Shown in pieces: positions 42,902-62,806 of a stretch of DNA of 64,000 bases. The translations under genes were made by a program, and so were the position numbers. The stretch's first letter is position 1; every line of letters starts with the position of its first letter. The notes beneath the pieces are model-generated. The model worked only from the letters and a program-made list of their open reading frames with translations. It ran no database searches and had not been told where the DNA came from. The stretch lies in assembly GCA_025061115.1 (NCBI GenBank), contig JANZKC010000002.1:416001-480000 (forward strand). The letters run 5' to 3'. This DNA is from Candidatus Culexmicrobium cathedralense. GTDB taxonomy: Archaea > Thermoproteota > Methanomethylicia > Culexarchaeales > Culexmicrobiaceae.

Positions 42902-42978
42902 GGGCGGGTCGTCTAGCTGGCTAGGATGCCGCCCTGACGCGGCGGTGGTCGTGGGTTCGAATCCCACCCCGCCCACCA
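42902..42978 (+). tRNA. tRNA-Val(GAC), CCA encoded; island integration site
   Basis: GGGCGGG...CCGCC-CT-GAC-GC-GGCGG...CCCGCCCACCA. Confidence 0.97.
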
Positions 42979-43104
42979 CTACCATCAATTTGATGGTGTT
43001 CTGATGGTGTGAATTAATGGTACCTAGTGGACTCTGCTACTGGTTCTGCAGTTTGCATATCACCTTTTTATATGAAATTCTGCATTTAGATAGTTGGTGA
43101 ATTA

Positions 43105-44466
43105 GTGGATCCAAGTAAGGTAAATTTGAAGTCTATTGGTGATGAGGTTAGGTATAGGATTTTTGATTATGTGAGGAGTAAGGGTGTTACTAGCCGTGAT
43201 TTAGGTATCAATCCAACTATTATCAATAGAATTAAAAATAGGCGTATACGTGTTTCAGATCGTACACTTGCTAAATTATTGAGATTTTTGACTTTAGAAG
43301 AATTTGCTGAGCTCATTAGTGGTAGAATTCCAAGTCAATTAATTGAGCCTAGAGATTTGAGTGAAGCCTTAGTTAAGCTTGAATCATCAATAAATCAACT
43401 CAAAATACTGTTAGATAAGTATCCACAACTATCATCAATAGCATACCAGAAATTTAATGAAATAATTAGCCACTTAAAACACTATTCAATAACCGTGACT
43501 AATGAACATATTGAAAAGTTCAAGAAAATATTGCGTGATAAAGCACCAAAAACAGCTAGTGACCGCATGAGATACCTACTAAGAGCACTAAGAGACTTAA
43601 ACTACGAGCTCTCCACTGACAAGCTTCAAGAATATATTATTGATTTGAAAGAGCAAAGCATTTATGTAGCTGAGCACACAGCAAAAGCCCTAAAACTATT
43701 CATAAAGCACGTAATTAAAGATAGAAACCTATACGAATCATTTAAAACACCAAGAGTAACCGAAGAGGCTGATAAGGAAATTCCAACTCCAAATGAAGTA
43801 AGAGCTGTAGCTAAAGCAATAAATTGGTCACCAGCAAAAGCCTACTACTGCCTCCTAGCAGAATCAGGATTAAGACCAGGAGAACTATTCAAATTAATAA
43901 TAAGTGAAATAAATATTGAAGAGAGAACAATAAAGCCAAAAAGAGTAACTGAAACTAAAAGAGCATATATAGCATTCTTCTCAAAACAACTCCAAAAATA
44001 CCTAAAACAAGTCTACCTACCCTACCGAGAAGAATTCATTAGCAAATACGCCAAGAACATGAAATACTTAATTGATGCTAAAGCTGAAGAATGGAAATAA
44101 CTTCTATTCCCATTTAAAGAATCAACCATAAGAGCAGCAATATACGACGCAATGGAAAAAACATTAGGTAGGAGATTCAAACTATACGACTTAAGAGCAT
44201 TTTTTGCAACCTACATGAGCATCAAAAAAGTACCAGGCCAAATAATCGATATAATACAGGGAAGAGTACCACCCAAACAATTCAAAATCCTAGTAAGACA
44301 CTACCTAGCAATCACAACTGAAGAACTAAGAAAAATATATGACGAAGCAAACCTAACAACACTAGAAAAACAATTAAAAGATAATGAAATACACCAGCTT
44401 AGAAGGCTTGAAATATATACTAATGTTTCAGTATCTGATGGAAAACTGAAACATCACAGCATATAA
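43105..44466 (+). pseudogene. Tyrosine integrase with N-terminal HTH, in-frame TAA at 44098
   Basis: ESGLRPGE, KR, YDLRAFFATYM and RHYL; the two ORFs are in one frame (WK*LLFPFKE). Confidence 0.9.
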
Positions 44467-44654
44467 GATCATCAAATTTGATTATTATTAGGGTGGAATG
44501 AAACAATATCAAGCATAAGAGCATTTTTATTTTCATTGACAAGCCACTAAGCAATGAAGTGGCTAAATGAGTTTATTTAGATAGTAATACTTTGAATACT
44601 TTTTGATTTAACTTCCTTTAATTTTAAATTTTCAGTTGCAATAACTTTAGGTAG

Positions 44655-46022
44655 GTGTTGAGTATTAGTGGCGCAAATGTGAGGGTTATGCAAAAATATT
44701 CTAAGATAGCTCGATATTGGGGAAGGAAAATATATGAAGCTACTAAAGTAATTTTCCTAAACATTACTGGAAATATTGAAGGTAAAGTGATTTTAGATCC
44801 ATTTGGTGGTGCTGGTTGCATAGTTCTTGAAGCTTTAAGGTATGGCGCTAGAACAATCTACATCGACATAAATCCTTATGCTTACTTAATAGCTCGTGTA
44901 ATGTTAGATTGGTTTGATTATGAAAAGTTACGTTTAAAAGCTGAAAAAGTACTTTCACGCAAAAAAATAATTTATCAAGGGCTTGATGGCTCAACGAAAT
45001 ATATTGGTGCAGATGAACTATACACCATTGAAGTTCAAGGAGTTAAAAAGAGAGTTAAGTATTATGAGTGGATTGATGATGAATGTTGTGCAGTAACGTT
45101 CGATGGTGAGAAAATAAGGACTTCCGACTTCACTGAAGGAGAACCTTACTATCAACCACCAAAATATAAATTGTGGTATCCATGGGGAGAGCCTTTCGAT
45201 AAGAAAAGAAACTACGATTGGCTACACGAATTCTTCACAAATCGAAACTTAATAATACTCACAAATATTTGGCATGATATACGACCACCTAAAACAATTT
45301 CCGGAAAAGATACTCGTGAACATCGAGCCATGACTCTTATCTTTTTGTCAATACTTTACATGGCAAGCAAAATGGCAAGGCGCGGGGCTGGATCATGGGG
45401 AGTAAATAGCTATTGGGTGCCACGAATACATGTAGAGTACAATCCCTATGATCTTTTACGAAGAAAATTGAAGAGAATCTTAAAGATGTCGCCCCCCCTA
45501 CAATATCAAGCAAAAACATCTGGAAGCATACATAGTATTCCTAGAGTAATCAGAGGGAAATTGCATGCTGCAATACTTCATGGTGACTGCACGAAAATTC
45601 TAAAGCATATCTCCCCAAATAGTATAGATTACGTAGTAACAGACCCCCCGCATGCAGATGAAGTACAATATTTAGAGTTGAGCTTTTTCATGAATGCTTG
45701 GCTTAGATCCAATCCATACTCATGGGCAATTGATGAGGTAATTGTCAATAGAAGAAAACACAAAGATTTCAATACATACATAAGAATGCTCACCTCGGCT
45801 TATAAGTTAATTCATAATGTGCTTAAGCCGCGGGGAAAAATGATACTAATTTACCACGAAGAAAGTGAACAGAAATTAAAAGAAATGATAAAGGCCGCAG
45901 AAAAAGCAGGTTTTTCCTTAGAAAAGAAATTAAGTGGTGAAATGAAGTATCAGCGTAACATTGGTGATAGAAATACATTAAGGGGAAAAATTTACTGGAT
46001 ATTAGTTTATTCGAAAAACTGA
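44655..46022 (+). CDS. DNA amino-methyltransferase (N6A/N4C), motif I before motif IV
   Basis: RYWGRK, ILDPFGGAG (motif I), VVTDPPH (motif IV), Y.ELS.F...WL and VLKP.G. Confidence 0.88.
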   Translation: MLSISGANVRVMQKYSKIARYWGRKIYEATKVIFLNITGNIEGKVILDPFGGAGCIVLEALRYGARTIYIDINPYAYLIARVMLDWFDYEKLRLKAEKVLSRKKIIYQGLDGSTKYIGADELYTIEVQGVKKRVKYYEWIDDECCAVTFDGEKIRTSDFTEGEPYYQPPKYKLWYPWGEPFDKKRNYDWLHEFFTNRNLIILTNIWHDIRPPKTISGKDTREHRAMTLIFLSILYMASKMARRGAGSWGVNSYWVPRIHVEYNPYDLLRRKLKRILKMSPPLQYQAKTSGSIHSIPRVIRGKLHAAILHGDCTKILKHISPNSIDYVVTDPPHADEVQYLELSFFMNAWLRSNPYSWAIDEVIVNRRKHKDFNTYIRMLTSAYKLIHNVLKPRGKMILIYHEESEQKLKEMIKAAEKAGFSLEKKLSGEMKYQRNIGDRNTLRGKIYWILVYSKN

Positions 46023-46056
46023 AATTTTTCACCAAATATTTTTACTTGGTGTAAGT

Positions 46057-47682
46057 TTGGCACATGAACATAGTAAGTATACTAAACGTATAGAACATGC
46101 TTTAATTAAGTATGTCCGTAGATTAGATTCAGAAGTTAATTTGGCATTAAACAGTTATTTTAATCTTATTGAAAAAGCAGTGCATCAAATTGAAGACTAT
46201 AGATTGAAAGTATCTCCTGAAACACCACACATATTGCTTCCACTATCCCTACTTGGAACTTATCGATTCAATGTAGAGAAGCTATACTTTGATGTAAAGT
46301 TTAATAATCCATTTAGAGATGACGTACGTATTTTATTTTCAAGTAAAATAATGATACCAGCAATTTCACTAAACTTACCATCATTCGTAACTGTCCATCG
46401 TTGGACTAGAAAACGCCAATGTGAAGACTTGGAATCAGCAGTTGATGAAGATAGGATGCTTATTATAGAGAGAGGTAGCTATTCCATTTTAAACTTCTAT
46501 TACTTTGATTCCATGACATGCTCAGAAATTTATGACGCAGATTACCTTAACATGATACTTAAAGATATGCTAATATTTCTAGCATTACTACCAGTACCTA
46601 GCCTGAATGATAAGTGTCAAGCTTTCTGCAGATCTCTTCCATTCTTAAGCATGTATGGATCTGACATAAGCGGTGTTGAAGCACTAGGCATTACGCGCTG
46701 CTTGCTTAAATTAGATCGTAAAAGCTTGGAATCAGCATATTTCAGACGCGCATCCATTCGAAGCTTATTATGGGGGAGGCTACCATTCTATAAGGTGAGA
46801 GCTTTTATAGTATCAAATAATCCAATAGAAGATAAGATTAATGTTTTAAGTAATGAAGTAATCTACATTCCAGAGCTGTACTTCATGAAGCTTCTAGAGT
46901 ATTGTAATGCTAGTGCTCTGCTAGTGGACTCAATTGTAATATCTCTCTTCATAATTAAGAAAGGCTTAAGAGAATATGCGGAAAAATTGATGCTCTTCAA
47001 TATTCTAGCTATGCCTATCAACATCTTTCCAGTAAATGATAGTGCCGTCATGTTTGCAATTCTAAATTACGCTACTACTAGCACTTGTTCTAACCAGATT
47101 ATAAATATGACAGCTGAAAGAAAGGATTCTTTAGAACATGAGTTTGACATTAACATCACGATTCGGGAGGGCGATTTATTATCTAAAATGCACTTCATAC
47201 TCAGAGCTATGAAGTTAAAGCAATTGAAATTAAGCTTATCCAAAATAACCATTAAAATTTCGCGAAGTAGTTCAAAACTATCCAATCTGTTAGGTTATGC
47301 GTATACGTATTTGCTTCCCTTCATAAATGAACGCTCACTTATAAGTCATGAACAAAAGAGTGCAATATCATCTCGCTGCTATCCTCCCTGCACTATACTA
47401 CCGTTGATTTCCTTTGCTTTAGCAAAGAAGTTTAATTTCAAAACATATAAAGAGCTAGCAAAACAAATAGTACAAATTCTGAGCAAACGTATTAAGAAAA
47501 ATGACGCTGAAATTCTAACTACACTTAGTGATGAATTTAGGAGAAGGGGTATTAATGTTAAATATAGTGAGATAATTGCCTTAGTGAGAAACATAATATT
47601 AGCATGGCAACTACATATTATTAGGGCAAAATATCTTAAATTGATGTTAAAACATCAATTATATGGAGGATCGTTTCATTGA
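46057..47682 (+). CDS. Hypothetical 541-aa protein in the defence operon
   Basis: Long intact ORF whose stop overlaps the helicase start (TTGA); no motif recognised. Confidence 0.8.
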   Translation: MAHEHSKYTKRIEHALIKYVRRLDSEVNLALNSYFNLIEKAVHQIEDYRLKVSPETPHILLPLSLLGTYRFNVEKLYFDVKFNNPFRDDVRILFSSKIMIPAISLNLPSFVTVHRWTRKRQCEDLESAVDEDRMLIIERGSYSILNFYYFDSMTCSEIYDADYLNMILKDMLIFLALLPVPSLNDKCQAFCRSLPFLSMYGSDISGVEALGITRCLLKLDRKSLESAYFRRASIRSLLWGRLPFYKVRAFIVSNNPIEDKINVLSNEVIYIPELYFMKLLEYCNASALLVDSIVISLFIIKKGLREYAEKLMLFNILAMPINIFPVNDSAVMFAILNYATTSTCSNQIINMTAERKDSLEHEFDINITIREGDLLSKMHFILRAMKLKQLKLSLSKITIKISRSSSKLSNLLGYAYTYLLPFINERSLISHEQKSAISSRCYPPCTILPLISFALAKKFNFKTYKELAKQIVQILSKRIKKNDAEILTTLSDEFRRRGINVKYSEIIALVRNIILAWQLHIIRAKYLKLMLKHQLYGGSFH

Positions 47683-50600
47683 GTAATGTTCAAGTACCTA
47701 GTATTGATGACTTAATGATTGGCGCTTACCAAGAGCTTTTCTTGAAGGAGTTAGAAAATGTAAGAGCAACACATCAAGTACTAGTGCATCATAGTGTTCC
47801 TGAAGTACTTCAGATATTGCATTCATACATATCTCAATTTAAAGAGAAGCCTATCCACCTCAATGCTAATCAACTACTAATGGAGCTTGCTAAGAGAAAG
47901 CTTATACTAATTTATCCCGATGGTAGAGTGAGAACCAGAAATTTGGAACTCATTATTAGAGCAATTTACTCACGAGCATATCCAAGTGCATTATCAACAT
48001 TAGAGTATGTGATCTTAAAACCTCGTGAATCACCACTACCATCATTTGAAGAGCGCGAGGGAAATGAACTACGCAACATAGTATACATGTACTTTAGGAC
48101 TTTCCTAGATGAACAATTGGCAACCAACTTGTCAGAAGCCTTTACTAACGCATTTGTTAAAAGCATTGCAAATAAAAGCTCCCTAGAGGAAGGTTCACTA
48201 TCTGAATACCAATATATTAACTTGAAAACCCTCCTTAATTACGCTTCTAACAAAGCACCTTCTATATCGCTTTTAGCAGCTCCCACAGGTACGGGTAAAA
48301 CTTGGATTTTCGTGCTCTATGCCATAGCCAGAATTCTAGAAGCAAAAAGTAAGGGCGAATTTAGTGGAGTAAAAGTTATTATTTTATATCCGAGAAAAGC
48401 TTTAGCACGTGATCAATCTGAACGAATTTTGAAGTTACTCCACTTTCTTAATGAAGAATTAAAGCTAAGAGGGCTTCAAACATACGCTATTAGTTTAGGT
48501 ATTTGGGATCGAGACTCACTGCAAAATTGGAGGAAAATTGCAGAAATAAGAATGAAAGCTAAAGGGAGAAATGTTGAATTTAGAGGCATTAAATGCCCTA
48601 TTTGTAGCGCAAAGTTAATTTATGATGAGCAAAGGGAAGTTATTGCCTGCCCATCTTGTGGACTTACCTTTAACTTTATAGGGGACATTAGAGAGTGGAT
48701 AAACAAAAAACAACCAGACATACTCATCACAAACTTTTGGGCTTTAAACTACAGGCTCATTAGCAGACATTACAAGCAACTACTAGGAAATCGAGTTCGC
48801 TGCATAATTATAGATGAAGCTCACGTACTAAAGGATTTAGAAGGAGCCTTCACAGCATACCTCCTTTGCAGACTTCTGTTACGATTAGCAATGCAGTACA
48901 AGGGAGTATCTACTATTCCATCAGCACCATTAAAGCTCGATCCTAATGCAGAATATAATGCTCTTGACTGGATACGCGACTACATTAGAGATAAAAGCTT
49001 AACCATTATCCTATCATCAGCGACAATTTCCACTGCACAAACAGTGAGTGAAAGGAATAAAGATGCCATAAAATTTACTAGCAACCTTGTTTATCCCAAA
49101 CTCTTTGAACTATTCGAAAGTTTATGTAAAGGTATGGGGTTAGAGCCCGTAATTTATCACGATTATAATGACATTTACGAGAAACTTTATAGTGCGAGAC
49201 ATCCATTAGGAAAGGTGAGGAGAAAAATAGATGTTGTAATCATATTAGCTCCACATCCATCAAGAGGTTTAGAAACAATCGCTCAATCCACAACTCTGTG
49301 TTCTCTATTTTGGTGTAAAGAGTTCAATCAGAAATTCTTACTATTTACTGATAATAAAGAGGCAATTGAACGTCTATATCACTTTATAAATGACATTATT
49401 ATTGGTGAACGTGGAGAAATATATGATCACCTATTTCTTACAGATAAGAATCCAGGTGCTCGAAGAAGTCTCCTTATACATAAGTCATGGAAAAATTATG
49501 GAGAAAAGCTACTAAGCAATGGCGATATGCTAATTAGGGCATTGGAAGACCCGCTTTACTGGATAATCTTTTCCTACCCATCATACTTTAATAAAATCAT
49601 AACTAAACTTAGAGATATCAATAAAGCGTTATCTCAAATGAACTATAAACAGAGTGATCACTTTAATGACCTCCTAAACATTGCTAAGGCTAGTTGTGAT
49701 GATATTTTTTGGAATAGAGCTTCGCGCTTAAGCATTCATCATGCCGATCTGGATAGGAGTGAGAGACAAAGTATAGAGGAGAGATTGAAGGGAGCTGATT
49801 TAATTGGAGTTCTATGTACATCAACACTAGAACTTGGTATCGATATAGATCACATATCAACTATAATTCAATACAAACCACCTAGAACTGCGGAGAACTT
49901 TATTCAAAGGCTTGGAAGAGCTGGAAGAAAACCTACAACAATGTACATCGCCACCGGCTTCCTACTTCTAAGCAATTTTGAAACTCTATATCTCAATGAG
50001 AGGTACTCAGAAAATGCATTATTCAATGTCAGACCCAAACCCTTACCACTAAATAATCACCGTGTACGTGCTAACGCCATCTTCTATACGATAATTGACA
50101 TGTTAGCGTATCTAGATTATCAGACTTATTATAGTAGCAAAGCAAGAGATGCTAACAGAACTGCAAATAGAACACATAATATCTACCGAGCACTCCTAAC
50201 ATATGAAAAGCCCATAATTTCAATAATTGCAAGTTTGTTTGGTCTACATTCAAGTATAGTGAAAGATGAGTATCAAACACTTACAGATCATATATGGGTA
50301 CTTTACAGAAACTTAAGTAACATAACTATGGGTCCAATTTCAATTAAAAACATTATATATAACACAATGGAAACAGTACAATTAACGAGAGATAATTTAA
50401 ACAAAATACTTTCAAGCATGGGTGAAAATCCAAACCTCTTTAGGGATTCAGAGGAGTATCAGAGGATAATAAGTAAAATGTTTAAATATTTACGATTTCT
50501 TAATGAGCTATATAACGGGCTTCACAAATTAGATCTCTACTGCATATCCAACCCCGAATATTTAATAAGGAAAAGAAATGATATACGCAAGAACCTTAAC

Positions 50601-50804
50601 AATTACTTAGTCAAGTTAGATGATCTAGTAATTTTCCTAAATAACTTGAGTAAAATGATTTCTGATGCTATACTCTTCTCAAAGATCAGAAAAGTAACAG
50701 ATGACTTAAAGCAGATAGAGAGTGGTGTTAAAGAATTAATTAAATTCGTGCAGACTGGTATAGATTTACTCTTCACTTTAAACTTAAGGCGTATATTACG
50801 GTGA
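47679..50804 (+). CDS. SF2 DEAH-box helicase, DrmA/DpdJ/YprA-like, with Zn-finger insert
   Basis: LSEYQ, APTGTGKT, YPRKALARDQ, CPIC..CPSC, DEAH, SAT, HHADL, TSTLELGIDI and QRLGRAGR. Confidence 0.92.
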   Translation: MSNVQVPSIDDLMIGAYQELFLKELENVRATHQVLVHHSVPEVLQILHSYISQFKEKPIHLNANQLLMELAKRKLILIYPDGRVRTRNLELIIRAIYSRAYPSALSTLEYVILKPRESPLPSFEEREGNELRNIVYMYFRTFLDEQLATNLSEAFTNAFVKSIANKSSLEEGSLSEYQYINLKTLLNYASNKAPSISLLAAPTGTGKTWIFVLYAIARILEAKSKGEFSGVKVIILYPRKALARDQSERILKLLHFLNEELKLRGLQTYAISLGIWDRDSLQNWRKIAEIRMKAKGRNVEFRGIKCPICSAKLIYDEQREVIACPSCGLTFNFIGDIREWINKKQPDILITNFWALNYRLISRHYKQLLGNRVRCIIIDEAHVLKDLEGAFTAYLLCRLLLRLAMQYKGVSTIPSAPLKLDPNAEYNALDWIRDYIRDKSLTIILSSATISTAQTVSERNKDAIKFTSNLVYPKLFELFESLCKGMGLEPVIYHDYNDIYEKLYSARHPLGKVRRKIDVVIILAPHPSRGLETIAQSTTLCSLFWCKEFNQKFLLFTDNKEAIERLYHFINDIIIGERGEIYDHLFLTDKNPGARRSLLIHKSWKNYGEKLLSNGDMLIRALEDPLYWIIFSYPSYFNKIITKLRDINKALSQMNYKQSDHFNDLLNIAKASCDDIFWNRASRLSIHHADLDRSERQSIEERLKGADLIGVLCTSTLELGIDIDHISTIIQYKPPRTAENFIQRLGRAGRKPTTMYIATGFLLLSNFETLYLNERYSENALFNVRPKPLPLNNHRVRANAIFYTIIDMLAYLDYQTYYSSKARDANRTANRTHNIYRALLTYEKPIISIIASLFGLHSSIVKDEYQTLTDHIWVLYRNLSNITMGPISIKNIIYNTMETVQLTRDNLNKILSSMGENPNLFRDSEEYQRIISKMFKYLRFLNELYNGLHKLDLYCISNPEYLIRKRNDIRKNLNNYLVKLDDLVIFLNNLSKMISDAILFSKIRKVTDDLKQIESGVKELIKFVQTGIDLLFTLNLRRILR

Positions 50805-53311
50805 TAGTTATGAATAGAAGAAGTATTAGTCTCATTCATTTGCTTAGAGAAGGTGTGTCATTTAGAAGATTGTCGGATCCACTTCACATGGGAAAGAGTA
50901 CAGTTCAAGATTGCAAACTTATTATACGATACTCTCATGACCCTGATGGATTGAAAGAGAGCACTAAGTGGCCTATAACGGATGTCTTGTATACTTACTT
51001 GAGACCTTTAAATATTCGCCGACTTACAACTCCCCAAGGAAAGCAGTGGTGCATAATACTTCCTCCTTCACGTAGTCTTTACAGAGTTGAGTACTTTGAT
51101 CATACACGTAGAATAGTTAGAGTTAAACGAGTTCGACATTCAAGTATCAGGCTTAACTTATTAAATTATGTACCATATAAGTGCTATGACGATTCATGGT
51201 TTAACTATCAAACAAGTTCAGGAGTTTGGCGTGCATGTGCTCCTGAATTTATAACTTATATAACATTTGACATGCTACCCGATGCTAATAAGCCTCTATT
51301 ATACTTATGCTGTAGACGGCGCGGTCATAATCTTGAAGTTCTAAATCTCATATACATTTCAAGGCCTACCAAAAGTGTTGAAAGCATACCTGTCACATAC
51401 ACTTATGACTGTAAGTTTGTATGGATAGGAGCATCTAAAAGTGATCTGAAAAGCATGGGCTTCACAGAGCCACCAACAAATTATACAATCGAAGAAGTTT
51501 ACAGTAGAGGTTCGAGAGCAATTTACTTTGAAAGAAGGTATTCTTATGATGATTTGCTTGACAATTCAAGTGTTACTAGAGCTTTGAGATCATATGCTAT
51601 AGTTAAAGTTTATATAGAGCCAGTAAGGGAATTAGGGTATCCACCTGTACTTATCTTGCACATGGATAATGCAGGCTTATATGTGCGTAGAGTTCCTAAG
51701 ATATGCTTTAAAAAAGTTCTTTTAGGCTCCCGTTTAAGAGCAATGATTACAATGCTATCATCAGCACCTATATTCATTAATATGCACACATATCCTCAAA
51801 GAGCTACAATGGGCGGAGGATTAGGTGTAAGAATTATTAATAGCGAAGGATTTGAAATTCTCTTCGAAAAGAGGGCATTTAGAAAACTAATTGAGGGTAT
51901 TGTACTAAGCGATATTAAGTTGTTGAAGACGCTTCTACTAAAATATGTTTTAATAAAATACTGTTATGATAGAAGGGAAGACTATTATGATTTCTTAGCA
52001 ATATCAGACTTAATCCTCACATTAATTCAAGGCGATCCAGAGAATAAGTTAAGGAATTATAGTAAAGCATTATATGCCATAGATGTAGATGAAGTTATAG
52101 CTAATTTGAGGAGAGCACCTGAAGATTATGATCGATTCATAAATTACGTTGTTGAGGTAGCCCTCAACTCATTAGCTCATATTCTTCTAAAAGTAATTAC
52201 AGCGCACACACTTAATACTCAACTGAAAAATTTCACTTTATATGTTGATACTCAGTACAAGGCAAGAATCAATGGAGAGGAAGATGAGTATTACGCTATA
52301 CTGGTCTTGGAAAATTCACATGAAGGCCTAGGCTTTATAGAGCAACTAAGTGCACTACTATCACAAGATACTCAGATAAACATAGTTAAATACATCATAA
52401 AACCCGCTCTTCAAATGTTAATAGATGATAAAACTGGTAAAGACTTCTGCTCCATGCACTATGAAGCTTATAGAAGGAAGGACAAGAGCTTAGTTGATGC
52501 ACTATGCGGCAGAAATCCAGACTTGAATCAACTAAGAGATTACGTGAGAAACCTTGTAAATGAATGGAGAAAGCACTTAAAAATAGATTTTCCATCAGAT
52601 TTCATACGACCCCTACTCCAACACTACCTAAAAATTGTCAATCCATCTCTACGCAGAAAACTTAACACAGATGCATTCCTCCGTGGATCAATACCTCAAG
52701 TCTATAATGTTGAAGTACCATTCTGTTGGGATGGTTGTGAGCAATGCATTAGATTGAGAGACGCTTACTTGTTGACACCAATAGAGCAAATATTCAACTT
52801 ATCCAAAAAACTACTAGTACGTATAATAAATGTACTCTACGATCTACTTGATCCAAGCAAGAAAGCACTCCATAGAACTGGAAGTGGCTTAGGTCAAGAA
52901 GTTTTAAAGCTCTTAAGCTCGGCAAGTACTGAAATAAGGATAATGTGTCCATGGATATCACCTGACATAGCTCAATACTTAATTGATATTGCGCAAAATA
53001 AGGGATTAAAAATAAGAATTATAACACATCCCCCAAGCAGAAATGAACCTCTTCCCCACATAAACGCAGTAAGCATACTCGAAAAGGCAGCTAAACAGTT
53101 AAATATAATTAAAATAGCATACAATGAAAAAATTCATGCAAAAACAATAATTATAGATGATACGTTATTAATAACTGGCTCAATGAACTTAACAAAACGT
53201 GGAACAGAAATAAACATAGAAAGCATAACCATATTCAAATGCAAATCCACAATATACACAAGCATTGTAGATTACGAATTACAGTGGTGGGTTTCATTAA
53301 ATAAAACCTAA
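50801..53311 (+). CDS. DUF1998 (MZB)-like domain fused to a PLD-family nuclease
   Basis: NSLAHILLK, LENSHEGLG, FC...CWDGCEQC; then I.IMCPWIS, HAKTIIIDD (HKD) and GSMNLT. Confidence 0.85.
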   Translation: MIVMNRRSISLIHLLREGVSFRRLSDPLHMGKSTVQDCKLIIRYSHDPDGLKESTKWPITDVLYTYLRPLNIRRLTTPQGKQWCIILPPSRSLYRVEYFDHTRRIVRVKRVRHSSIRLNLLNYVPYKCYDDSWFNYQTSSGVWRACAPEFITYITFDMLPDANKPLLYLCCRRRGHNLEVLNLIYISRPTKSVESIPVTYTYDCKFVWIGASKSDLKSMGFTEPPTNYTIEEVYSRGSRAIYFERRYSYDDLLDNSSVTRALRSYAIVKVYIEPVRELGYPPVLILHMDNAGLYVRRVPKICFKKVLLGSRLRAMITMLSSAPIFINMHTYPQRATMGGGLGVRIINSEGFEILFEKRAFRKLIEGIVLSDIKLLKTLLLKYVLIKYCYDRREDYYDFLAISDLILTLIQGDPENKLRNYSKALYAIDVDEVIANLRRAPEDYDRFINYVVEVALNSLAHILLKVITAHTLNTQLKNFTLYVDTQYKARINGEEDEYYAILVLENSHEGLGFIEQLSALLSQDTQINIVKYIIKPALQMLIDDKTGKDFCSMHYEAYRRKDKSLVDALCGRNPDLNQLRDYVRNLVNEWRKHLKIDFPSDFIRPLLQHYLKIVNPSLRRKLNTDAFLRGSIPQVYNVEVPFCWDGCEQCIRLRDAYLLTPIEQIFNLSKKLLVRIINVLYDLLDPSKKALHRTGSGLGQEVLKLLSSASTEIRIMCPWISPDIAQYLIDIAQNKGLKIRIITHPPSRNEPLPHINAVSILEKAAKQLNIIKIAYNEKIHAKTIIIDDTLLITGSMNLTKRGTEINIESITIFKCKSTIYTSIVDYELQWWVSLNKT

Positions 53312-53436
53312 AACCTCCAAATAAACTCCGGACAAAATCCATGATAAAATCGTCAACCAGTTTAATCACCGCTATATATTTGTTCATAGCTCAATTTCTT
53401 AGAAAAATACTTTGTCTATAGGTTAGGTGAAATAGT

Positions 53437-54751
53437 ATGAGCAAAAATAAAAGTAGAAATGAGTATAAACTAATCTACTTCGTACCACTAATCATAGTAT
53501 TAATAGGTGTCGTAGCATTTTTTATCGTTAATGAAATTCTTAAACCAAAAATAATTGGTGAAGTTGTTGAAGAATTATCATTAACTGAAATTATTCCTAC
53601 TAGTCATGAAGAAGCAATAAAAATTATGCCTAAACTATTCAAGTAAAATTGGGAAAATACTAGTAACCTACTTTGAAGATCAAATACAAACTGGCCCAAT
53701 AATTGACAATGGATATCTAATATTCAAGGAACCAATACCAGTTTACATGAATAGTGGATGGTTAACGATTAAAGTAAAAATACTGGAAGCAGAACCAGAG
53801 GACTACACGTTGATGTGGGTATTTGACAAAAACTATACGATAACATTTGAATGGAGCAAATATTATGTTGGGGCTATACTATTTGAGGGATTAGTAGATA
53901 GGGTTCGTGTAGCTGAATGTTTTAGCATAATAGCACCAAATTTTACATATAGCATTAAATGTCTAGTTCTACCAAAAAGATATCAGCCACCAAGTTTTCC
54001 AGCATTTGGGAAAACCTACACGATAACAATTCCAGCTTGGATTGAATTCAAAGTACACGCTAATACTATTGATGAAATTCTCGAGAACTTACCAGCAATT
54101 CTACGTGATTTAGCTGATGAAGTTGATCAAGGATTTAGTCCACATCAAGCTTTAGAGAGATTATTTGAAAACGCCACTTACGGTAAATTCACGGACAAAT
54201 TCATAGCACTCCTAGTTAAGCGTGCAAGAGTATTTGGCTCACTAAGAGACTCCCTAACTGGAATAGAGCACCTACTACCAGTTCAAGCGAGACTAGCTTT
54301 ATGGCTAATTATTCTGGGGGAGGAATTGGGTGCAACTTCAAGTGTATATCATGAATTAGCAGATGCAATGCACGAATATTATTTGTCATTGAAAAGCTTC
54401 AAGCGTAGCTGCCAAGGATTTAGGTGGATGGCAATTGGACTAGTAGCCCTAACAATAGGTTTAGTAATAACGTTATTCTCAACACTAATTTCAAGAATAA
54501 GCATTATCAGTGAACTAGCATTTAAAGCTGAAGGAATAATTTCATTACCATTCAATATTGCCGGCCTAACACAATTACCAACAATTAAGGATTGGATTTA
54601 CGCATCAGTAGCATTGAATTCAATTGTTCTAGCATTAACAGCAGGTAAAACGCTTGACTGGAGGTTGGGTGGAGCATTTAGGGATGTAGCACTAGTGTCA
54701 ACAATAATACTGTTAGCTCTAATATTCGGCTTAATCTTTAGATTACTATGA
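53437..54751 (+). pseudogene. Frameshifted chimeric gene: membrane-anchored protein joined to a type II secretion system F (TadC/FlaJ-like) C-terminal half
   Basis: Removing one A near 53633 joins the two ORFs; the distal part ENLPAILRDLADEVDQGFSP.QAL.....YG...3 TM is T2SSF-like. Confidence 0.6.
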
Positions 54752-54907
54752 TTTATGCATTAAATCTTCAATAGTGCTATTGATTTTTGAGATTATTGCT
54801 TCATAAATTTCATCATCACTAGCATTCAAATTGTATGTTGCAAGAAGTTCATCATCACCGAAAATAGAAACTTTACCATTAACAATAACCACAAAAATAC
54901 TCCTCAA
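54746..54907 (-). CDS. 53-aa acidic hypothetical protein (not in the ORF track)
   Basis: MRSIFVVIVNGKVSIFGDDELLATYNLNASDDEIYEAIISKINSTIEDLMHKS* after a GGTGA SD; divergent from the RHH gene. Confidence 0.45.
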   Translation of the reverse strand: MRSIFVVIVNGKVSIFGDDELLATYNLNASDDEIYEAIISKINSTIEDLMHKS

Positions 54908-55109
54908 ATATTCTTCACCCCAAGCTCTATTTGTGAATTTGTGCGTGTGTAAATACTATAGTATCTGAGTCGGTATGTTCATTAGATATTATGAATTTAA
55001 TGATTCACGAACCATGTTAATGTTCATGGTAAGCGAATATATTATAGCATGCTATTCATGAATTCAAGCAACTTAAATACTCTAATGCAGTCTATAAGGG
55101 AATTCATTA

Positions 55110-55538
55110 ATGACTGTTGGAGATAAAAAGATTATTACTAAGAGTGATAAAGTAGCACTACAAGTATTAATTCCTAAAGAGTTGTATGATGAACTCATAA
55201 GAATAGCAATTGAAGAGTATGGTTCAGTGAAGGGTGCAGTTTCAAATTTAGTTGAAAGAGCAATTAGGATATATCTTGGACCTAAAATGCACACACAAAT
55301 ACGCACAAATCCACCCAATAAAATACGCCAAATATACGACAAAGTAATTGAAAGAGTTAAGGAATTGTTAGGTATTGATTTTAAACCATATCATGTTCCA
55401 ACTAAGCTATTTGAGCAGGCAATAGCAATGGAGCGTGGAAGTGATCCAAGAACAATTAGTAAGTGGATTAGCACGTTCAAGAGATTTAAACTAATAAAAT
55501 TCGTAGATCAATACGGGAAAGTATTAGAGCTTCTCTAA
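55110..55538 (+). CDS. Ribbon-helix-helix plus wHTH DNA-binding protein (plasmid/virus type)
   Basis: VALQVLIPKELYDEL...KGAVSNLVERAIRIYL and C-terminal GSDPRTISKW...FKLI. Confidence 0.75.
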   Translation: MTVGDKKIITKSDKVALQVLIPKELYDELIRIAIEEYGSVKGAVSNLVERAIRIYLGPKMHTQIRTNPPNKIRQIYDKVIERVKELLGIDFKPYHVPTKLFEQAIAMERGSDPRTISKWISTFKRFKLIKFVDQYGKVLELL

Positions 55539-56114
55539 CTAGAGTTTGGGAATATTTCCAAATTTGATAATCTATTAGTTATTTCTTTAGAAACAATCGT
55601 GCAAACCTTTTACTTATTAGTTTAACTCCAAATTTACATGCAACATTAATGAAAGGATTTTGAATTAGATTACACATTGAAGTCTCTTACTTCGTTTAAA
55701 ATCTCTACAAGCCTCCTCCATTGCAATTCTGGCGAGCTCCTATGTGTATGTTGAGTATAATCCATCTTCAACATAGTCATAAATATTCTCGTTGATATGA
55801 TCATGATATCCACATGTTTTATAATCTCTCACACGGCGCTCTAAATAGCTTAGGTGTAATTTGTTTTCATAATCATTGGAATCGTTCCCCACGATGTTGT
55901 CTTTATTTATTTTAACTACATTTCTGTTCGGATAAGAACTTGGACTTAAGTAAGCGGGTTGGTTTTTAACCATTAATTAACACTGTATAGCCCTTATGGT
56001 CAGGAAGATTTTTAATGAGGTACTTTTAAGTTCTAAGACTGTCATCTCATGCAATTAACTTCAGATTTCGCAACTAGCTTTCTAATTTTAATTTAATGAT
56101 TATTTTGTTGAATT

Positions 56115-56612
56115 TTATTTTTGCTTTAGTTGTTTAATCTTGTAGATGTTTAATATTTTGATAGTTAGTAGGTAGAATGGTATGCTTATTATAATTGTTA
56201 TAATTAGTATTTTAATTATTATTTGCGGCTCTCTAATTGCTGCAGTTGCAAGAAAGCCTAACAATATCGTGGGTATGAATCCTCCACTTGATGATAGCAT
56301 TAGGAGTAGCATTTGAATCCAAAATGGAATTCTGTAATTTAAATATATGATGCAGGCAATCATTATTGAAAGCGTAGATATTATGGTTAAAATTAATAGG
56401 ATTATTAGTGATTTAATTGATTTATGAAACTTCATTTTATAAGCTAGGTAAGCATTAATTAAACCGATTATAGATAATGGATTAAATATTGGTGGTACCA
56501 TGAAAAATGACATGATAAAGCTATTTACAATAGCAAGTATAAAAAGTATGTTAACTAGCAGTGGGTTAGGTTTAAGCATTACTATCACTTCACGGCTTTT
56601 TCTTGCCCTCAA
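56115..56612 (-). CDS. Hypothetical membrane protein
   Basis: Five hydrophobic segments; true start probably MLKPNP. Confidence 0.55.
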   Translation of the reverse strand: MRARKSREVIVMLKPNPLLVNILFILAIVNSFIMSFFMVPPIFNPLSIIGLINAYLAYKMKFHKSIKSLIILLILTIISTLSIMIACIIYLNYRIPFWIQMLLLMLSSSGGFIPTILLGFLATAAIREPQIIIKILIITIIISIPFYLLTIKILNIYKIKQLKQK

Positions 56613-57093
56613 CTATGATGAAGATTTTCCAATTACCTGTTAATAGTTTACTAGATTTTAATTTTAACAAATCACCCCGTCTTAATTCAACATAGTTATC
56701 ATCGCTTTTAATTATTTGATTAACTACATCACCTTGAATCGAATGAATTGCTTCACATAATTGAAAGACGAAACCTATATTGGATTCATTTACAGCTATC
56801 ACTGTAATTTTGTCAATAAGTAATGTATGGTTTTCTTGTACCAGCATCCTTAGTACAAGCTTTCTATATTCTCGATGGGTCATTAGCTCCATTACTTTAG
56901 ATACATCAATTATATCACGGTCACTATGAAGCATTAGATTGCAAGAATCCTTCCAATTGCTTCCCGTCCAAACTTGAACATGCAATCCCGCAGTTGATGT
57001 TAATGAAGGATCAACTTCATAGAATACTCTCAAATATGAAAAATATGCTTCTGAATACCCCATGTGCTCCTCTACAACATCTTCAACTTGCAT
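56590..57093 (-). CDS. Hypothetical protein, possibly a surface-protein fragment
   Basis: Beta-rich 167-aa ORF (VQVWTGSNW). Confidence 0.4.
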   Translation of the reverse strand: MQVEDVVEEHMGYSEAYFSYLRVFYEVDPSLTSTAGLHVQVWTGSNWKDSCNLMLHSDRDIIDVSKVMELMTHREYRKLVLRMLVQENHTLLIDKITVIAVNESNIGFVFQLCEAIHSIQGDVVNQIIKSDDNYVELRRGDLLKLKSSKLLTGNWKIFIIVEGKKKP

Positions 57094-57283
57094 TAATTTG
57101 CATTTCCATATAATTAAAATAAATATATATTCTCTTGCTCTTGTGCAGCAAATACAGCATCTCTTAAAGCATTATAAATCATTCCGATTGATCTATCTAA
57201 TATTGATGTTTAGATGATTGATGAGCTAAACTATTGAATAGTTTCACTGATTTGAGTGTGGAAAGTTGCATATTTGCTTTAAG

Positions 57284-62303: not shown

Positions 62304-62403
62304 GCCGGGGTAGCCTAGCCTGGTTAGGGCGTCGGCTTGCTATAGAGCAATGCAAAAAGCCGATGGCCGTAAGGCCGCGCGGGTTCGAATCCCGCCCCCG
62401 GCG
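62304..62403 (+). tRNA. tRNA-Ser(GCT) with 15-nt intron (62343-62357), no encoded CCA
   Basis: TCGGC-TT-GCT-A[TAGAGCAATGCAAAA]A-GCCGA; TTGC/GCAA central helix with two 3-nt bulges; long variable arm; G73. Confidence 0.93.
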
Positions 62404-62469: not shown

Positions 62470-62806
62470 GGGGCGGCGGCTAGGCGGGGGGCTCGGCCTC
62501 CCCTTGCAGGGGAAAACCCCTGCACCGCAAAGGGTCGAGATGGCGGGCCGAAAGCCGGCGTCAGGCGCCTTGAACAGCCGCACGCCCCAGTGACTCGGCG
62601 ATGAAGCTTCGTCCCATGGGGTCGCCGGCGGGTGATAGGCTCTCCGGAGGGAGGGCCGAATCACCCCTTACCGGGCGAATCGGGTTAGGCCAGGAATGGA
62701 GCGGCCCTAAGCCCGGACGGCGGCGTTCATGGGGGTGCGGGGCTTAGACCGGCACTGGGTGACGGGCGGCTGGGAGGGGCGTCGAGCGTCGGCGCGCCGC
62801 CGCCCC
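62470..62806 (+). ncRNA. ffs: Archaeal signal recognition particle (7S) RNA
   Basis: Terminal helix GGGGCGGCGGC/GCCGCCGCCCC, helix 6 with GGAG loop, helix 8 TAGGCCA-GGAA-TGGAGCGG and Alu loop-loop CTCGGC/GTCGAG. Confidence 0.95.

What the first reader, a model, noticed from the sequence alone, without database searches (positions are those of the whole stretch)
44655..53311. Candidate new archaeal antiviral system: amino-MTase + unknown protein + SF2 helicase + DUF1998-PLD fusion
Seen: four co-directional, intact genes, the last three coupled by 4-nt overlaps (TTGA at 47679, GTGA at 50801), directly behind a tRNA-integrated integrase. Neighbouring element genes (integrase, T2SSF) have decayed, which suggests selection keeps this operon. 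Established: DISARM uses DrmA helicase, DrmB DUF1998 and DrmC PLD, plus either an adenine MTase with SNF2 DrmD (class I) or a C5 MTase with DrmE (class II); Dpd islands carry DpdJ (helicase-DUF1998) and DpdK (PLD). This locus fits neither: it has an amino-MTase without DrmD, a large unknown gene instead, DUF1998 and PLD in one chain, and no dpdA-C. Inference: a compact methylation-based self/non-self restriction system, either a new DISARM-like class or a DpdJK restriction module re-coupled to methylation.
Basis: partly seen in the sequence, partly recalled or inferred. Interest (0 to 1): 0.85.

Follow-up and report, generated by a model that had tools for sequence, protein, structure and literature searches.

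The report
Archaeal methylase–helicase–PLD nuclease defence operon
A rare four-gene operon on a foreign-looking DNA island in a hydrothermal-vent archaeon looks like an undescribed relative of the DISARM and Dpd anti-virus systems: a DNA methylase, a split helicase, a nuclease fused to the helicase's missing part, and one protein with no known relatives.

Summary
Four intact co-directional genes lie at 44655-53311, with TTGA and GTGA start/stop overlaps. They sit in a 33-37% GC island next to tRNA-Val and an integrase cut by one in-frame stop.

The genes are:
- MT: an amino-methyltransferase (FGGAG, DPPH).
- UNK: a 541-aa protein with no match in any library searched.
- HEL: a YprA/Lhr-type DEAH helicase with a zinc ribbon in RecA1. 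Its best match is the N-terminus of DpdJ.
- Canopy-PLD: an 836-aa protein ending in an intact HKD (PLD) nuclease. Its middle carries DUF1998 signature residues, supported only through distant homologues.

The four-gene order recurs in 3 of 4 related loci with enough context; the fourth has the MTase nearby. A wider triad (MT-family methylase, HEL-family helicase, DUF1998 protein) lies together in 10 of 401 sampled Thermoproteota genomes.

No curated DISARM or Dpd threshold is met, and no defence model matches UNK.

Most likely this is a methylation-marked restriction system on a split-YprA chassis. [quoted passage not shown] 2025.

Function is untested.

The same genome holds a sister cluster next to a DpdA-like gene.

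The parts
42902..42978 (+). tRNA-Val (GAC). Left edge of the low-GC island and the presumed integration target.
   Evidence: ARAGORN and Rfam tRNA at 61.6 bits. Logan contigs of run X1 break at 42959-42969, inside its 3' end.
43105..44466 (+). Tyrosine-integrase pseudogene: one reading frame cut by a single in-frame stop at 44098-44100.
   Evidence: Phage_integrase E=7.5e-5 on the first part and Phage_integr_3 (archaeal) E=2.4e-6 on the second. Translation shows ...EEWK* followed by the continuing frame.
44620..44632 (+). AT-rich TATA-like element (TTTTAAAT) about 26 nt upstream of the MT start. Possible promoter of a leaderless operon transcript.
   Evidence: Read directly from the sequence. 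This is inference only; no transcript data exist.
44655..46022 (+). MT: amino (N6-A or N4-C) DNA methyltransferase. Motif I FGGAG is at aa 50-54 and motif IV DPPH at aa 330-333, so the order is I...IV, permuted relative to Pfam N6_N4_Mtase. The central part is PglX-like.
   Evidence: Pfam N6_N4_Mtase E=4.5e-9. PADLOC PglX E=2.6e-25 and many MTase_II models. Motifs by regex. D48, G52, G54 and D330-P331-P332 are invariant in all 9 family members aligned.
46057..47682 (+). UNK: 541-aa basic protein (pI 9.4) of no known family, specific to this sub-clade. It starts at TTG and lies 34 nt after the MT stop.
   Evidence: No hit in Pfam, PADLOC, NCBIfam, PHROGs or PDB. 0 of 7 homologues share any PADLOC model; one had a single hit at E=0.0093. 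ESM Atlas best score was 0.86 and its own model has pLDDT 0.31. Only 7 clusters were found in 5.8 billion proteins. 64 invariant columns.
47679..50804 (+). HEL: SF2 DEAH helicase of the YprA/Lhr type without its canopy module. Walker A GTGKT is at 204-208, DEAH at 379-382 and QRLGRAGR at 743-750. A zinc ribbon (CPIC 306-309, CPSC 324-327) is inserted in RecA1. There is a 170-aa N-terminal domain and a helical C-terminal 280 aa.
   Evidence: Pfam DEAD, Helicase_C and ResIII. PADLOC DpdJ E=2e-39, DrmA E=6e-16. NCBIfam DpdJ 130.7 bits against a cut-off of 800. PDB best hits are Lhr, a 2108-aa DEAD/DEAH helicase and YprA. Motifs. The zinc ribbon is kept in all six HEL-family homologues where it can be read; two of the four Cys columns, C306 and C324, are invariant; the seventh row, L029, has unread X residues there.
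50801..53311 (+). Canopy-PLD protein. The N-terminal and middle parts (about aa 1-650) carry DUF1998-type signature residues: LAH ending at H460, ENSHEGLG at 504-511 and CWDGCEQC at 642-649. It is fused to a single HKD nuclease domain (Pfam 702-816; H779, K781, D786, GSMN 793-796).
   Evidence: PLDc_2 E=2.4e-18. DpdK E=3.5e-13, DrmC E=2.9e-11, and DpdJ profile positions 1133-1223 against aa 428-525 at E=0.0015. Nuc and Zucchini-type PLD nucleases are the PDB hits. MZB passes in homologues: 27.4 bits against a cut-off of 24.2 in L026, and 11 of 37 at E<=0.01. Signature residues are invariant or >=90% conserved across the 37. The nearest Atlas clusters are PLD with MZB, mostly Thermoproteota.
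42979..57243 (.). Low-GC genomic island carrying the operon. The right end is approximate.
   Evidence: GC profile. In run X1 a single contig spans 42959-57112 at depth 71.5, against 86-94 on both flanks (a weak hint only).

Best explanation
This is a four-gene, restriction-modification-type defence operon of the DISARM/Dpd (YprA-helicase) superfamily, carried on a horizontally acquired island.

Proposed mechanism (inferred, not shown):
1. MT methylates host DNA (N6-adenine or N4-cytosine) at its own motif and so marks self.
2. HEL is a YprA-type translocase whose canopy (the DUF1998 module) is encoded by the next gene, as in DISARM's DrmA/DrmB. HEL and the canopy-PLD protein assemble into one motor.
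3. The PLD domain has a single HKD motif, so it probably has to pair up (dimerise) to cut. It degrades unmarked incoming DNA reached by translocation.
4. UNK is a clade-specific accessory subunit that probably docks on the helicase N-terminus. It may gate or target the motor, filling the slot that DrmD/DrmE fill in DISARM.

Shown here: gene integrity, catalytic motifs, homology relations, conserved gene neighbourhood, patchy distribution, and island context.

Inferred: complex formation, methylation as the self-mark, DNA degradation, and any role for UNK.
For: 1. All catalytic motifs are intact. They are invariant across relatives: K207, DExH, motif VI and 2 of the 4 zinc-ribbon cysteines (C306, C324) in HEL; H/K/S/N of the HKD motif in 37 of 37; DPP and GxG in 9 of 9 MTs.

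2. The genes are translationally coupled, and related loci show the same tight spacing.

3. Gene order in the UNK clade:
- MT-UNK-HEL-PLD in 3 of 4 loci with enough context (window, L002, L008).
- UNK-HEL-PLD plus a 34%-identical MT paralogue 3.5 kb downstream in the fourth, L003.
- HEL lies directly upstream of PLD in 6 of 6 loci that hold upstream DNA. L006 and L009 start inside the PLD gene.

4. Deep conservation of the triad:
- At only 26-28% helicase identity, an MT-family methylase, a HEL-family helicase and a DUF1998 protein are neighbours in G206, G217, G361, G188 and G080.
- The same holds in G253, G271 and G051.
- With G000 and G174 that makes 10 of 401 sampled Thermoproteota genomes.
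- Gene order and orientation differ between loci, yet the association is kept.

5. Module shuffling typical of defence systems: a full helicase-DUF1998-PLD fusion (L030 at 1593 aa; P0021 and P0028), and PLD replaced by a separate PD-(D/E)xK gene in L033.

6. Patchy distribution. The full-length family is in 2 of 401 genomes. It was not found in the 1 same-genus genome (57% complete) or the 2 same-family genomes. The region is a low-GC island at a tRNA with a dead integrase.

7. Defence-type neighbours elsewhere: HEPN_Swt1, KAP NTPase and a NOV_C helicase in L003; an SLFN-type helicase with NERD in L027 and L028.

8. The best profile matches are all defence components: DpdJ, DrmA, DpdK, DrmC and PglX.

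9. In L002 the UNK frame runs without a stop into HEL. This fits UNK acting on the helicase N-terminus.
Against: - There is no functional, methylome or expression evidence.
- The operon DNA was found identical in contigs of runs from other studies (X2, X3), which shows presence only.
- No curated DISARM or Dpd model reaches its cut-off, and no DrmB model hits the canopy protein.
- DUF1998 is not detected directly in the window's protein.
- In L003 the adjacent MT is missing, and only a distant paralogue lies nearby.
- MT-family methylases also occur without the helicase, among housekeeping genes: 5 of the 8 further MT loci I fetched, out of 17 further genomes with near-full-length matches.
- The L002 fusion is a single case. 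It keeps an internal GGGAGGG + TTG start, so it may only be a lost stop codon. No longer UNK fusion was found in the protein database.
- UNK's role is pure inference.
Confidence: 0.68

Rival explanations
1. The working unit is UNK-HEL-PLD alone. It would be a modification-independent helicase-nuclease defence, like Druantia III or the restriction half of Dpd. MT would be a separate, loosely linked or orphan methylase that shares the island.
For: - L003 keeps UNK-HEL-PLD with no adjacent MT.
- MT sits upstream, downstream or convergent in different loci.
- MT is separated by a 34-nt gap, whereas the other three genes overlap.
- MT-family genes exist without the helicase in 5 of 8 further loci examined.
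Against: - An MT-family gene lies within 4 kb in every one of the 10 genomes and 2 further contigs (L002, L008) with the helicase and DUF1998 pair that I could inspect. This holds across helicase identities down to 26%.
- In L008, MT is the best-conserved of the four genes: 61% identity against 35-47% for the others.
- A nuclease-helicase without a self-mark would need another way to avoid cutting the host.
Confidence: 0.17
2. It is a DNA-repair or replication-restart module of the mobile element or the host, like MrfA/MrfB (a YprA helicase plus a nuclease), and not immunity.
For: - YprA/MrfA and Lhr are among the best solved-structure matches of HEL.
- According to Bell et al. 2025 (section 5, read), the YprA family has a large repair branch.
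Against: - Linkage to a DNA methylase.
- The nuclease is of the PLD type, as in DrmC and DpdK, rather than an MrfB-type exonuclease.
- The best profile hits are the defence members DpdJ and DrmA.
- Presence in only 2 of 401 genomes, on an island.
- Defence-island neighbours in other loci.
Confidence: 0.07
3. It is an inactive relic: cargo of a dead integrative element that happens still to be open.
For: The integrase is broken. No att repeat was found. There is no expression evidence.
Against: - Four long ORFs (455-1041 aa) in AT-rich DNA are all open, with every catalytic motif intact.
- The same four genes are intact in L008 and L003, and in L002 apart from a 10-N scaffold gap, at 35-68% identity.
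Confidence: 0.05

Closest known systems
DISARM (DrmA helicase, DrmB DUF1998, DrmC PLD; class I with DrmD + the adenine MTase DrmMI, class II with DrmE + the C5 MTase DrmMII)
   Same: - The helicase and its DUF1998 canopy are encoded by separate adjacent genes. Bell et al. 2025 call this consistent only in DISARM and sporadic elsewhere.
- A PLD nuclease is present.
- A DNA methylase is linked. The MT here is an amino-MTase with a PglX-like core, and Bell et al. describe a PglX-like methyltransferase in DISARM class I.
- One further large gene of unclear role is present.
   Different: - DUF1998 and PLD are in one chain.
- The linker between the Cys cluster and the PLD domain is about 50 aa. That is too short for the 4-helix bundle that Bell et al. 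describe at the N-terminus of DrmC (my inference from lengths; no structure).
- There is no SNF2 DrmD, no DrmE, and no hit to any DrmB model.
- DrmA, DrmC and DrmAL/DrmAS scores are far below the cut-offs: 17.7-26.8 bits against 133-999.
- The helicase carries a RecA1 zinc ribbon and scores higher on DpdJ than on DrmA.
Dpd system, restriction part (DpdJ YprA-like helicase, DpdK PLD)
   Same: - The best-scoring family for both HEL (DpdJ N-terminus, 130.7 bits) and the PLD domain (DpdK, 52.9 bits).
- One zinc module inserted in RecA1, the feature Bell et al. 2025 report for canonical Dpd helicases.
- The PLD lacks a long N-terminal extension.
- The canopy region weakly matches DpdJ positions 1133-1223.
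   Different: - Scores are below the cut-offs (800 and 100).
- The helicase is split from its canopy, and the canopy is fused to the PLD.
- The Cys cluster is kept. [quoted passage not shown]
- No dpdA/B/C or 7-deazaguanine genes lie in the island; a methylase is present instead.
- There are no DpdD-I hits.
[quoted passage not shown] 2025, bioRxiv, PMC12458937)
   Same: This is most probably where the family belongs: the defence branch of YprA helicases, neither canonical DISARM nor Dpd.
   Different: The main text and legends that I read do not describe this architecture, the DUF1998-PLD fusion, the MT family or UNK. The supplementary tables were closed, so I cannot tell whether these helicases are listed there.
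BRIGADE (haloarchaeal Dpd/ARMADA hybrids) and ARMADA
   Same: - The nearest annotated plasmid homologues of HEL are haloarchaeal DEAD/DEAH helicases at 27-33% identity over partial matches (9-27% of HEL); the top seven rows align to the RecA1 region at 27-33%.
- The one such locus inspected (H2, Natronorubrum plasmid) has two ~1830-aa DEAD/DEAH helicase genes followed by a PLD gene.
   Different: - No BrxA-like, beta-barrel or MarR-like inserts were looked for; they cannot be tested without structures.
- There is no second YprA helicase, no BrxHII-like helicase, no Vsr nuclease and no deazaguanine genes.
- HEL is half the size.

Membership tests
DISARM | DrmA-family helicase (NCBIfam DISARM_DrmAS or DrmAL equivalog) | tested here: not met
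   17.7 and 22.9 bits against cut-offs of 950 and 999. PADLOC DrmA gave only partial hits at E=6e-16. HEL is homologous but not an equivalog.
DISARM | Separate DUF1998 protein (DrmB) next to the helicase | tested here: inconclusive
   The canopy is encoded apart from the helicase, which fits. However, no DrmB model hits at E<=0.01 or in distant relatives. DUF1998 is seen only through homologues.
DISARM | Stand-alone PLD nuclease DrmC | tested here: not met
   The PLD is fused to the DUF1998 protein. DISARM_DrmC_I scores 26.8 bits against a cut-off of 133.
DISARM | Class gene pair: DrmD (SNF2) + DrmMI, or DrmE + DrmMII (C5) | tested here: not met
   There is no SNF2 or DrmE hit in the operon or in the ORFs scanned. 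The remaining island ORFs are under 170 aa. UNK hits nothing. MT is an amino-MTase, not a C5 MTase.
Dpd | DpdJ equivalog (helicase with fused canopy) | tested here: not met
   130.7 bits against a cut-off of 800. Only positions 127-400 of 1482 are matched well.
Dpd | DpdK equivalog | tested here: not met
   52.9 bits against a cut-off of 100.
Dpd | dpdA/dpdB/dpdC modification genes in the cluster | tested here: not met
   No DpdA match lies on contig C2, which holds the window; the matches are on C4. DpdB gave no match, but that model rang in no control genome either, so this is weak. DpdC was not searched.
YprA-family defence helicases (Bell et al. 2025) | SF2 core plus an OB-CON-DUF1998 canopy with a 4-Cys cluster, fused or in the adjacent gene | tested here: inconclusive
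   The core is met. For the DUF1998 signature, H460, E504, G509, G511, C642, D644, C646 and C649 align with homologues that pass Pfam MZB. The OB and CON folds cannot be tested because structure prediction was off.
PLD-superfamily nucleases (Nuc/Zucchini/BfiI type) | One HxK(x)4D...GSxN motif per chain, active as a dimer | tested here: met
   HAKTIIID at 779-786 and GSMN at 793-796. PDB hits are Zucchini (4ggj) at E=1.8e-8 and Nuc (1byr) at E=1.7e-6. Dimerisation was not tested.
Amino (N6A/N4C) DNA methyltransferases | AdoMet motif I (FxGxG) and catalytic motif IV ((D/N/S)PP(Y/F/W/H)) | tested here: met
   FGGAG at 50-54 and DPPH at 330-333. Pfam N6_N4_Mtase scores 37 bits against a cut-off of 26.7. 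The target base and the motif cannot be tested here.

The most novel reading that the evidence does not exclude
This would be a distinct, mainly archaeal class of the DISARM/Dpd superfamily. Its restriction chassis is a YprA helicase split from a canopy-nuclease fusion. A dedicated permuted amino-methyltransferase supplies the self-mark. In this sub-clade a 541-aa protein of new fold docks on the helicase N-terminus and controls when the nuclease fires. The same genome carries a sister chassis (helicase, DUF1998 protein, PLD-like protein) beside a DpdA-type transglycosylase. Together the two loci would show that the 'mark-writer' is an exchangeable module on one restriction engine.
Probability: 0.35. 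Interest if true: 0.7.

Novelty: new variant of a known kind. Interest (0 to 1): 0.55.

Why it matters
Archaeal immunity beyond CRISPR and classical R-M is poorly charted, and no DISARM- or Dpd-type system from a thermophilic archaeon has, to my knowledge (recalled), been tested.

- This locus gives a compact, four-gene, fully intact example with clear mutational targets.
- It shows a new way of wiring the YprA canopy straight to a PLD nuclease.
- It adds a protein family (UNK) with no detectable relatives.
- It links a specific methylase family to the chassis across wide divergence.
- With the DpdA-linked sister cluster in the same genome, it makes one question directly testable: how is a single helicase-nuclease engine re-coupled to different DNA marks?

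Tried and rejected
There is no verdict either way.

- UNK identity. Pfam, PADLOC, NCBIfam, PHROGs and a PDB profile search gave nothing. ESM Atlas gave only leads below 0.9. hhalign of the UNK profile against the unknown genes that occupy neighbouring positions in distant loci (L027 418 aa, L028 428 aa, L026 473 aa, L030 465 and 548 aa, L029 822 aa) gave probabilities of at most 1.9%. UNK is therefore not the same accessory gene as in those loci. It also shows no relation to the 1065-aa and 414-aa genes of the C4 cluster.

- Search for longer UNK fusions: none found, which is weak evidence.

- att site. blastn-short of the tRNA-Val region against the rest of the window gave only chance-level matches of 10-18 nt. 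The 18-nt match at 62381 lies in another tRNA.

- Viral carriage. No relative of the canopy-PLD or UNK families in IMG/VR. No tblastn match of the canopy-PLD protein in PLSDB plasmids.

- Expression. No RNA holder was listed for the locus. This says nothing about expression.

- Depth of the island contig against its flanks in run X1 (71.5 against 86-94). I considered this as a sign of island-free cells. The tool warns that contig depth is no share of cells, and no contig joining across the island was listed, so it stays a weak hint.

- The apparent frameshift in the L002 helicase was rejected as a pseudogene sign. It is a run of 10 N.

- I considered calling the T2SSF ORF decayed but did not adopt it (see observation check).

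- Literature. Four full-text searches found no description of a DUF1998-PLD fusion with this methylase or of UNK. What I saw of each paper:
  - Bell et al. 2025 (PMC12458937): outline, sections 5, 7, 8 and 26, and passages.
  - PMC11529989, PMC4752239, PMC6329791: passages only.
  - All other papers: the search listing only.
  - Ofir 2018 and Bravo 2022: known to me from recall and from citations in those texts.
  - Supplements were closed and may list these helicases.

- Cluster look-up of 10 distant family members returned no informative names; the only name any member carried was 'hypothetical protein'.

Full report
1. THE OBSERVATION

The four ORFs exist as described:
- MT: 44655-46022
- UNK: 46057-47682
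- HEL: 47679-50804
- Canopy-PLD: 50801-53311

All are on the + strand and none has an internal stop.

The two 4-nt overlaps are real. TTG 47679 overlaps TGA 47680-82 and is preceded by GGAGG. GTG 50801 overlaps TGA 50802-04, and an in-frame ATG follows 9 nt later. MT ends 34 nt before UNK.

The operon lies in a stretch of 0.32-0.37 GC (44-58 kb), against about 0.41-0.51 in most 2-kb windows outside the 42-58 kb island (one outlier 0.37). This stretch starts right after tRNA-Val at 42902-42978. The integrase frame 43105-44466 is one gene cut by a single in-frame stop.

I found no repeat of the tRNA 3' end downstream. The right border (about 57.2-58.3 kb) therefore rests on GC and on contig breaks in public assemblies.

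The 'decayed T2SSF' claim is not established. The 334-aa ORF has one T2SSF domain and matches only the C-terminal third of UpsF, which may be normal for a short TadC-like protein.

2. THE FOUR PROTEINS

MT is an amino-methyltransferase.
- Motif I (FGGAG) is at aa 50-54 and motif IV (DPPH) at aa 330-333.
- Pfam N6_N4_Mtase is above threshold.
- The best defence-library hit is PglX, E=2.6e-25 over aa 189-420.

HEL is an SF2 DEAH helicase.
- Walker A, DEAH and motif VI are intact, and a CPIC...CPSC zinc ribbon is inserted in RecA1.
- Its best profile is the N-terminal 400 positions of DpdJ (PADLOC 2e-39; NCBIfam 130.7 bits against a cut-off of 800).
- DrmA comes well behind.
- The best solved relatives are Lhr, a 2108-aa DEAD/DEAH helicase and YprA/MrfA.
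- HEL ends in a helical region and has no DUF1998 module of its own.

The 836-aa protein ends in a single, intact HKD domain.
- Pfam PLDc_2 covers aa 702-816, with H779, K781, D786 and GSMN.
- This domain is most like DpdK and DrmC among defence models, and like Zucchini and Nuc among solved structures.

UNK matched nothing.
- Pfam, PADLOC, NCBIfam, PHROGs and a PDB profile search all returned no hit.
- None of its 7 homologues shares a PADLOC model.
- The ESM Atlas gave no score above 0.86.
- It is basic and mostly soluble. Its N-terminal two-thirds are the better conserved part.

3. IS THERE A DUF1998 MODULE?

Not by direct detection:
- Pfam MZB gives no hit for the window's protein. It gives E=0.15 in 1 of the 7 close homologues.
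- A whole-genome MZB scan at E<=1 did not hit it.

Indirectly, yes:
- A profile of the 7 close homologues, searched against 1.84 billion representatives, finds a wider family of 700-880-aa proteins aligned over positions about 334-828. Fourteen hits are below 1e-30.
- Of 37 such proteins aligned, 37 carry PLDc_2 and 11 carry MZB at E<=0.01.
- One of them (L026) is above Pfam's cut-off, at 27.4 against 24.2 bits. It aligns with window residues 401-829.
- In that alignment the DUF1998 signature residues are invariant or at least 90% conserved. These are the His of 'SLAH', 'E..GG.G' and 'C.DGC..C', which correspond to H460, E504, G509, G511, C642, D644, C646 and C649 in the window ORF.
- The weak DpdJ hit (profile positions 1133-1223 against aa 428-525) falls on the same region.
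- The two nearest Atlas clusters are archaeal PLD proteins; 27% of the members of one also carry MZB.

I therefore accept 'DUF1998-PLD fusion' as probable. The OB and connector parts of a YprA canopy cannot be checked without a model, because structure prediction was off.

4. CONSERVATION OF THE OPERON

The canopy-PLD and UNK families are each represented by only 7 clusters among 5.8 billion proteins.

Loci recovered from genome and metagenome collections show the following:

| Locus | Arrangement | Identity to window |
|---|---|---|
| L002 | MT-UNK-HEL-PLD | 66 / 49 / 58-65 / 64% |
| L008 | MT-UNK-HEL-PLD | 61 / 35 / 47 / 47% |
| L003 | UNK-HEL-PLD; a 34%-identical MT paralogue 3.5 kb downstream | UNK 43, HEL 56, PLD 58% |
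| L005, L007 | short contigs that still show HEL directly before PLD | - |
| L006, L009 | start inside the PLD gene | - |

L003 sits among defence-type neighbours: HEPN_Swt1, KAP NTPase and a NOV_C helicase.

The apparent helicase frameshift in L002 is a 10-N scaffold gap.

In L002 the UNK frame reads into HEL with no stop, although the internal GGGAGGG + TTG start is retained. This single case hints that UNK works at the helicase N-terminus. No longer fused form was found in the protein database.

5. A WIDER FAMILY

Among 401 sampled genomes of the same phylum, the full-length canopy-PLD family occurs in only G000 and G174. The phylum is Thermoproteota by the record title of L003, whose contig matches G174. 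The family was not found in the one same-genus genome (57% complete) or the two same-family genomes.

Distant members sit next to a HEL-family helicase (26-28% identity) and an MT-family methylase (25-37% identity):

| Genome | Locus | Arrangement |
|---|---|---|
| G206 | L026 | HEL-PLD-MT |
| G217, G361 | L027, L028 | unknown 418/428-aa gene, then HEL-PLD, with MT convergent |
| G188 | L029 | MT-HEL-PLD |
| G080 | L030 | one 1593-aa helicase-DUF1998-PLD fusion followed by a methylase |

Searching from the MT side, 17 further genomes had near-full-length MT-family matches. I fetched 8 of them:
- 3 of 8 again had HEL plus a canopy protein:
  - G271 has a PLD.
  - G253 has a separate PD-(D/E)xK gene and no PLD.
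  - G051 has no Pfam-detectable nuclease.
- 5 of 8 were longer MT-family genes (527-574 aa) with no helicase or canopy-PLD gene nearby; the three neighbours I scanned in two of these loci (L036, L038) are housekeeping genes.

So one branch of this methylase family is tied to the helicase and canopy pair in 10 of 401 genomes, while another branch is not.

A quick maximum-likelihood tree of 16 helicases was rooted for display on two haloarchaeal helicases, with the partial L005 and L007 left out. It puts the four UNK-linked helicases in one clade (SH-aLRT 100) on a long branch within this family.

The RecA1 zinc ribbon is kept in all six family members where it can be read. In all four distant helicases scanned the best PADLOC model is again the N-terminus of DpdJ, at 130-144 bits in three and 77 bits (behind DrmA) in the L030 fusion, and no DrmB model hits.

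6. HOW IT MOST LIKELY WORKS

By homology this is a YprA-type translocase whose canopy is encoded by the next gene, the arrangement known for DrmA/DrmB. Here the canopy is covalently joined to the PLD nuclease. A dedicated amino-methyltransferase is persistently linked to the pair.

The simplest reading is a methylation-marked restriction system:
1. MT marks self.
2. The HEL and canopy-PLD motor engages unmarked DNA and degrades it.
3. UNK is a sub-clade-specific accessory subunit, perhaps a gate or sensor.

Steps shown: integrity, motifs, homology and linkage. Steps inferred: complex formation, the nature of the mark, DNA cleavage and UNK's role. I put this at about 0.68.

The main rival (0.17) is that UNK-HEL-PLD acts without regard to MT. 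Repair (0.07) and relic (0.05) readings are less likely, for the reasons given under the rivals.

7. COMPARISON WITH KNOWN SYSTEMS

Bell et al. 2025 (PMC12458937; I read sections 5, 7, 8 and the legends) give the framework:
- Only DISARM consistently splits the helicase from its canopy.
- DrmC usually has an N-terminal 4-helix bundle, and DpdK does not.

The window's system mixes these traits:
- Split like DISARM.
- RecA1 zinc ribbon and a short PLD linker like Dpd.
- Cys cluster retained.
- A methylase instead of dpdA-C.
- Neither DrmD nor DrmE.

It fails every curated cut-off for DrmA, DrmC, DpdJ and DpdK. It is therefore not a member of either named system, but very probably belongs to the same superfamily.

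I found no paper describing this architecture (passages). Supplementary tables were closed, so the helicases may be listed there without description.

8. A RELEVANT SIDE FINDING

The same genome has, on contig C4, a second low-GC cluster. In order it holds:
- a DpdA-like gene above the curated cut-off (272.6 bits summed against 200);
- genes of 1065 and 414 aa;
- an 875-aa HEL-family helicase that matches DpdJ better than the window's HEL does (189 bits over positions 65-694);
- a 776-aa protein with DUF1998 motifs (hhalign probability 92.6% to the wide family);
- a separate 258-aa PLD-like ORF with no canonical HxK(x)4D by pattern.

One organism thus seems to carry two versions of the same engine, one beside a transglycosylase and one beside a methylase.

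9. VERDICT

It is a new variant, probably a new class, within a known superfamily, with one truly unknown component. Interest 0.55.

Tools unavailable: the search of earlier findings (closed), structure prediction (off), complex prediction (unreachable) and paper supplements (closed).

Noticed in passing
G000 contig C4, about 142.4-154.9 kb (L042 10392-19764 and L043 199-4863); outside the window: A second low-GC (0.30-0.38) defence-like cluster in the same genome. In order: a DpdA-like gene over the NCBIfam cut-off, genes of 1065 aa and 414 aa, an 875-aa HEL-family helicase (DpdJ 189 bits), a 776-aa DUF1998-like protein, and a 258-aa PLD-like ORF without a canonical HKD pattern. It looks like a Dpd/DISARM-like system with a split helicase beside a DNA transglycosylase. 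A further 368-aa PLD-like ORF lies about 7 kb away from the DpdA-like gene, at L042 2077-3183.
   Followed up: partly
L002 3665-5959: In this related contig the UNK reading frame has no stop codon and continues in frame into the helicase. The internal GGGAGGG + TTG start is kept. This is either a possible UNK-helicase fusion or a lost stop. A 10-N scaffold gap at 5942-5951 mimics a frameshift.
   Followed up: yes
window 42959-57243: In the run that may be the source of this DNA, one contig spans 42959-57112 at depth 71.5, while the flanking contigs have depth 86-94. Several contigs carry loose ends at 42975-42995. Some cells may lack the island or carry something else at tRNA-Val. No bridging contig was listed.
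   Followed up: partly
window 62304-62403 and 62473-62803: Rfam finds a 100-nt tRNA at 52.8 bits that ARAGORN missed, probably intron-containing. The archaeal SRP RNA (138.5 bits) lies directly after it.
   Followed up: no
window 53437-53646 and 53747-54751: A 69-aa ORF with a basic N-terminus and one strong hydrophobic segment (pilin-like) precedes the 334-aa T2SSF/UpsF-like membrane protein. Together they may be remnants or cargo of a type IV pilus-like module on the island.
   Followed up: partly
L027 14811-16067 and L028 14871-16157: In two distant loci a 418/428-aa protein of unknown family (38% identical to each other, no Pfam or PADLOC hit for the one scanned) occupies the slot directly upstream of the helicase that UNK occupies here. 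It shows no detectable similarity to UNK. This suggests a variable accessory position.
   Followed up: partly
L033 11126-11698: In one distant locus (G253) a 190-aa Cas4/PD-(D/E)xK-like gene sits between the methylase and the helicase, and the DUF1998-like protein has no PLD domain. This is an apparent nuclease swap within the family.
   Followed up: partly
L036, L037, L040 (and L035, L038): A longer branch of the same methylase family (527-574 aa) has no helicase or canopy-PLD gene nearby in all five loci. The neighbours I scanned in L036 and L038 are housekeeping genes (THUMP-SPOUT RNA methylase, PfkB kinase, PurP-like). This may be an orphan or non-defence methylase lineage.
   Followed up: no
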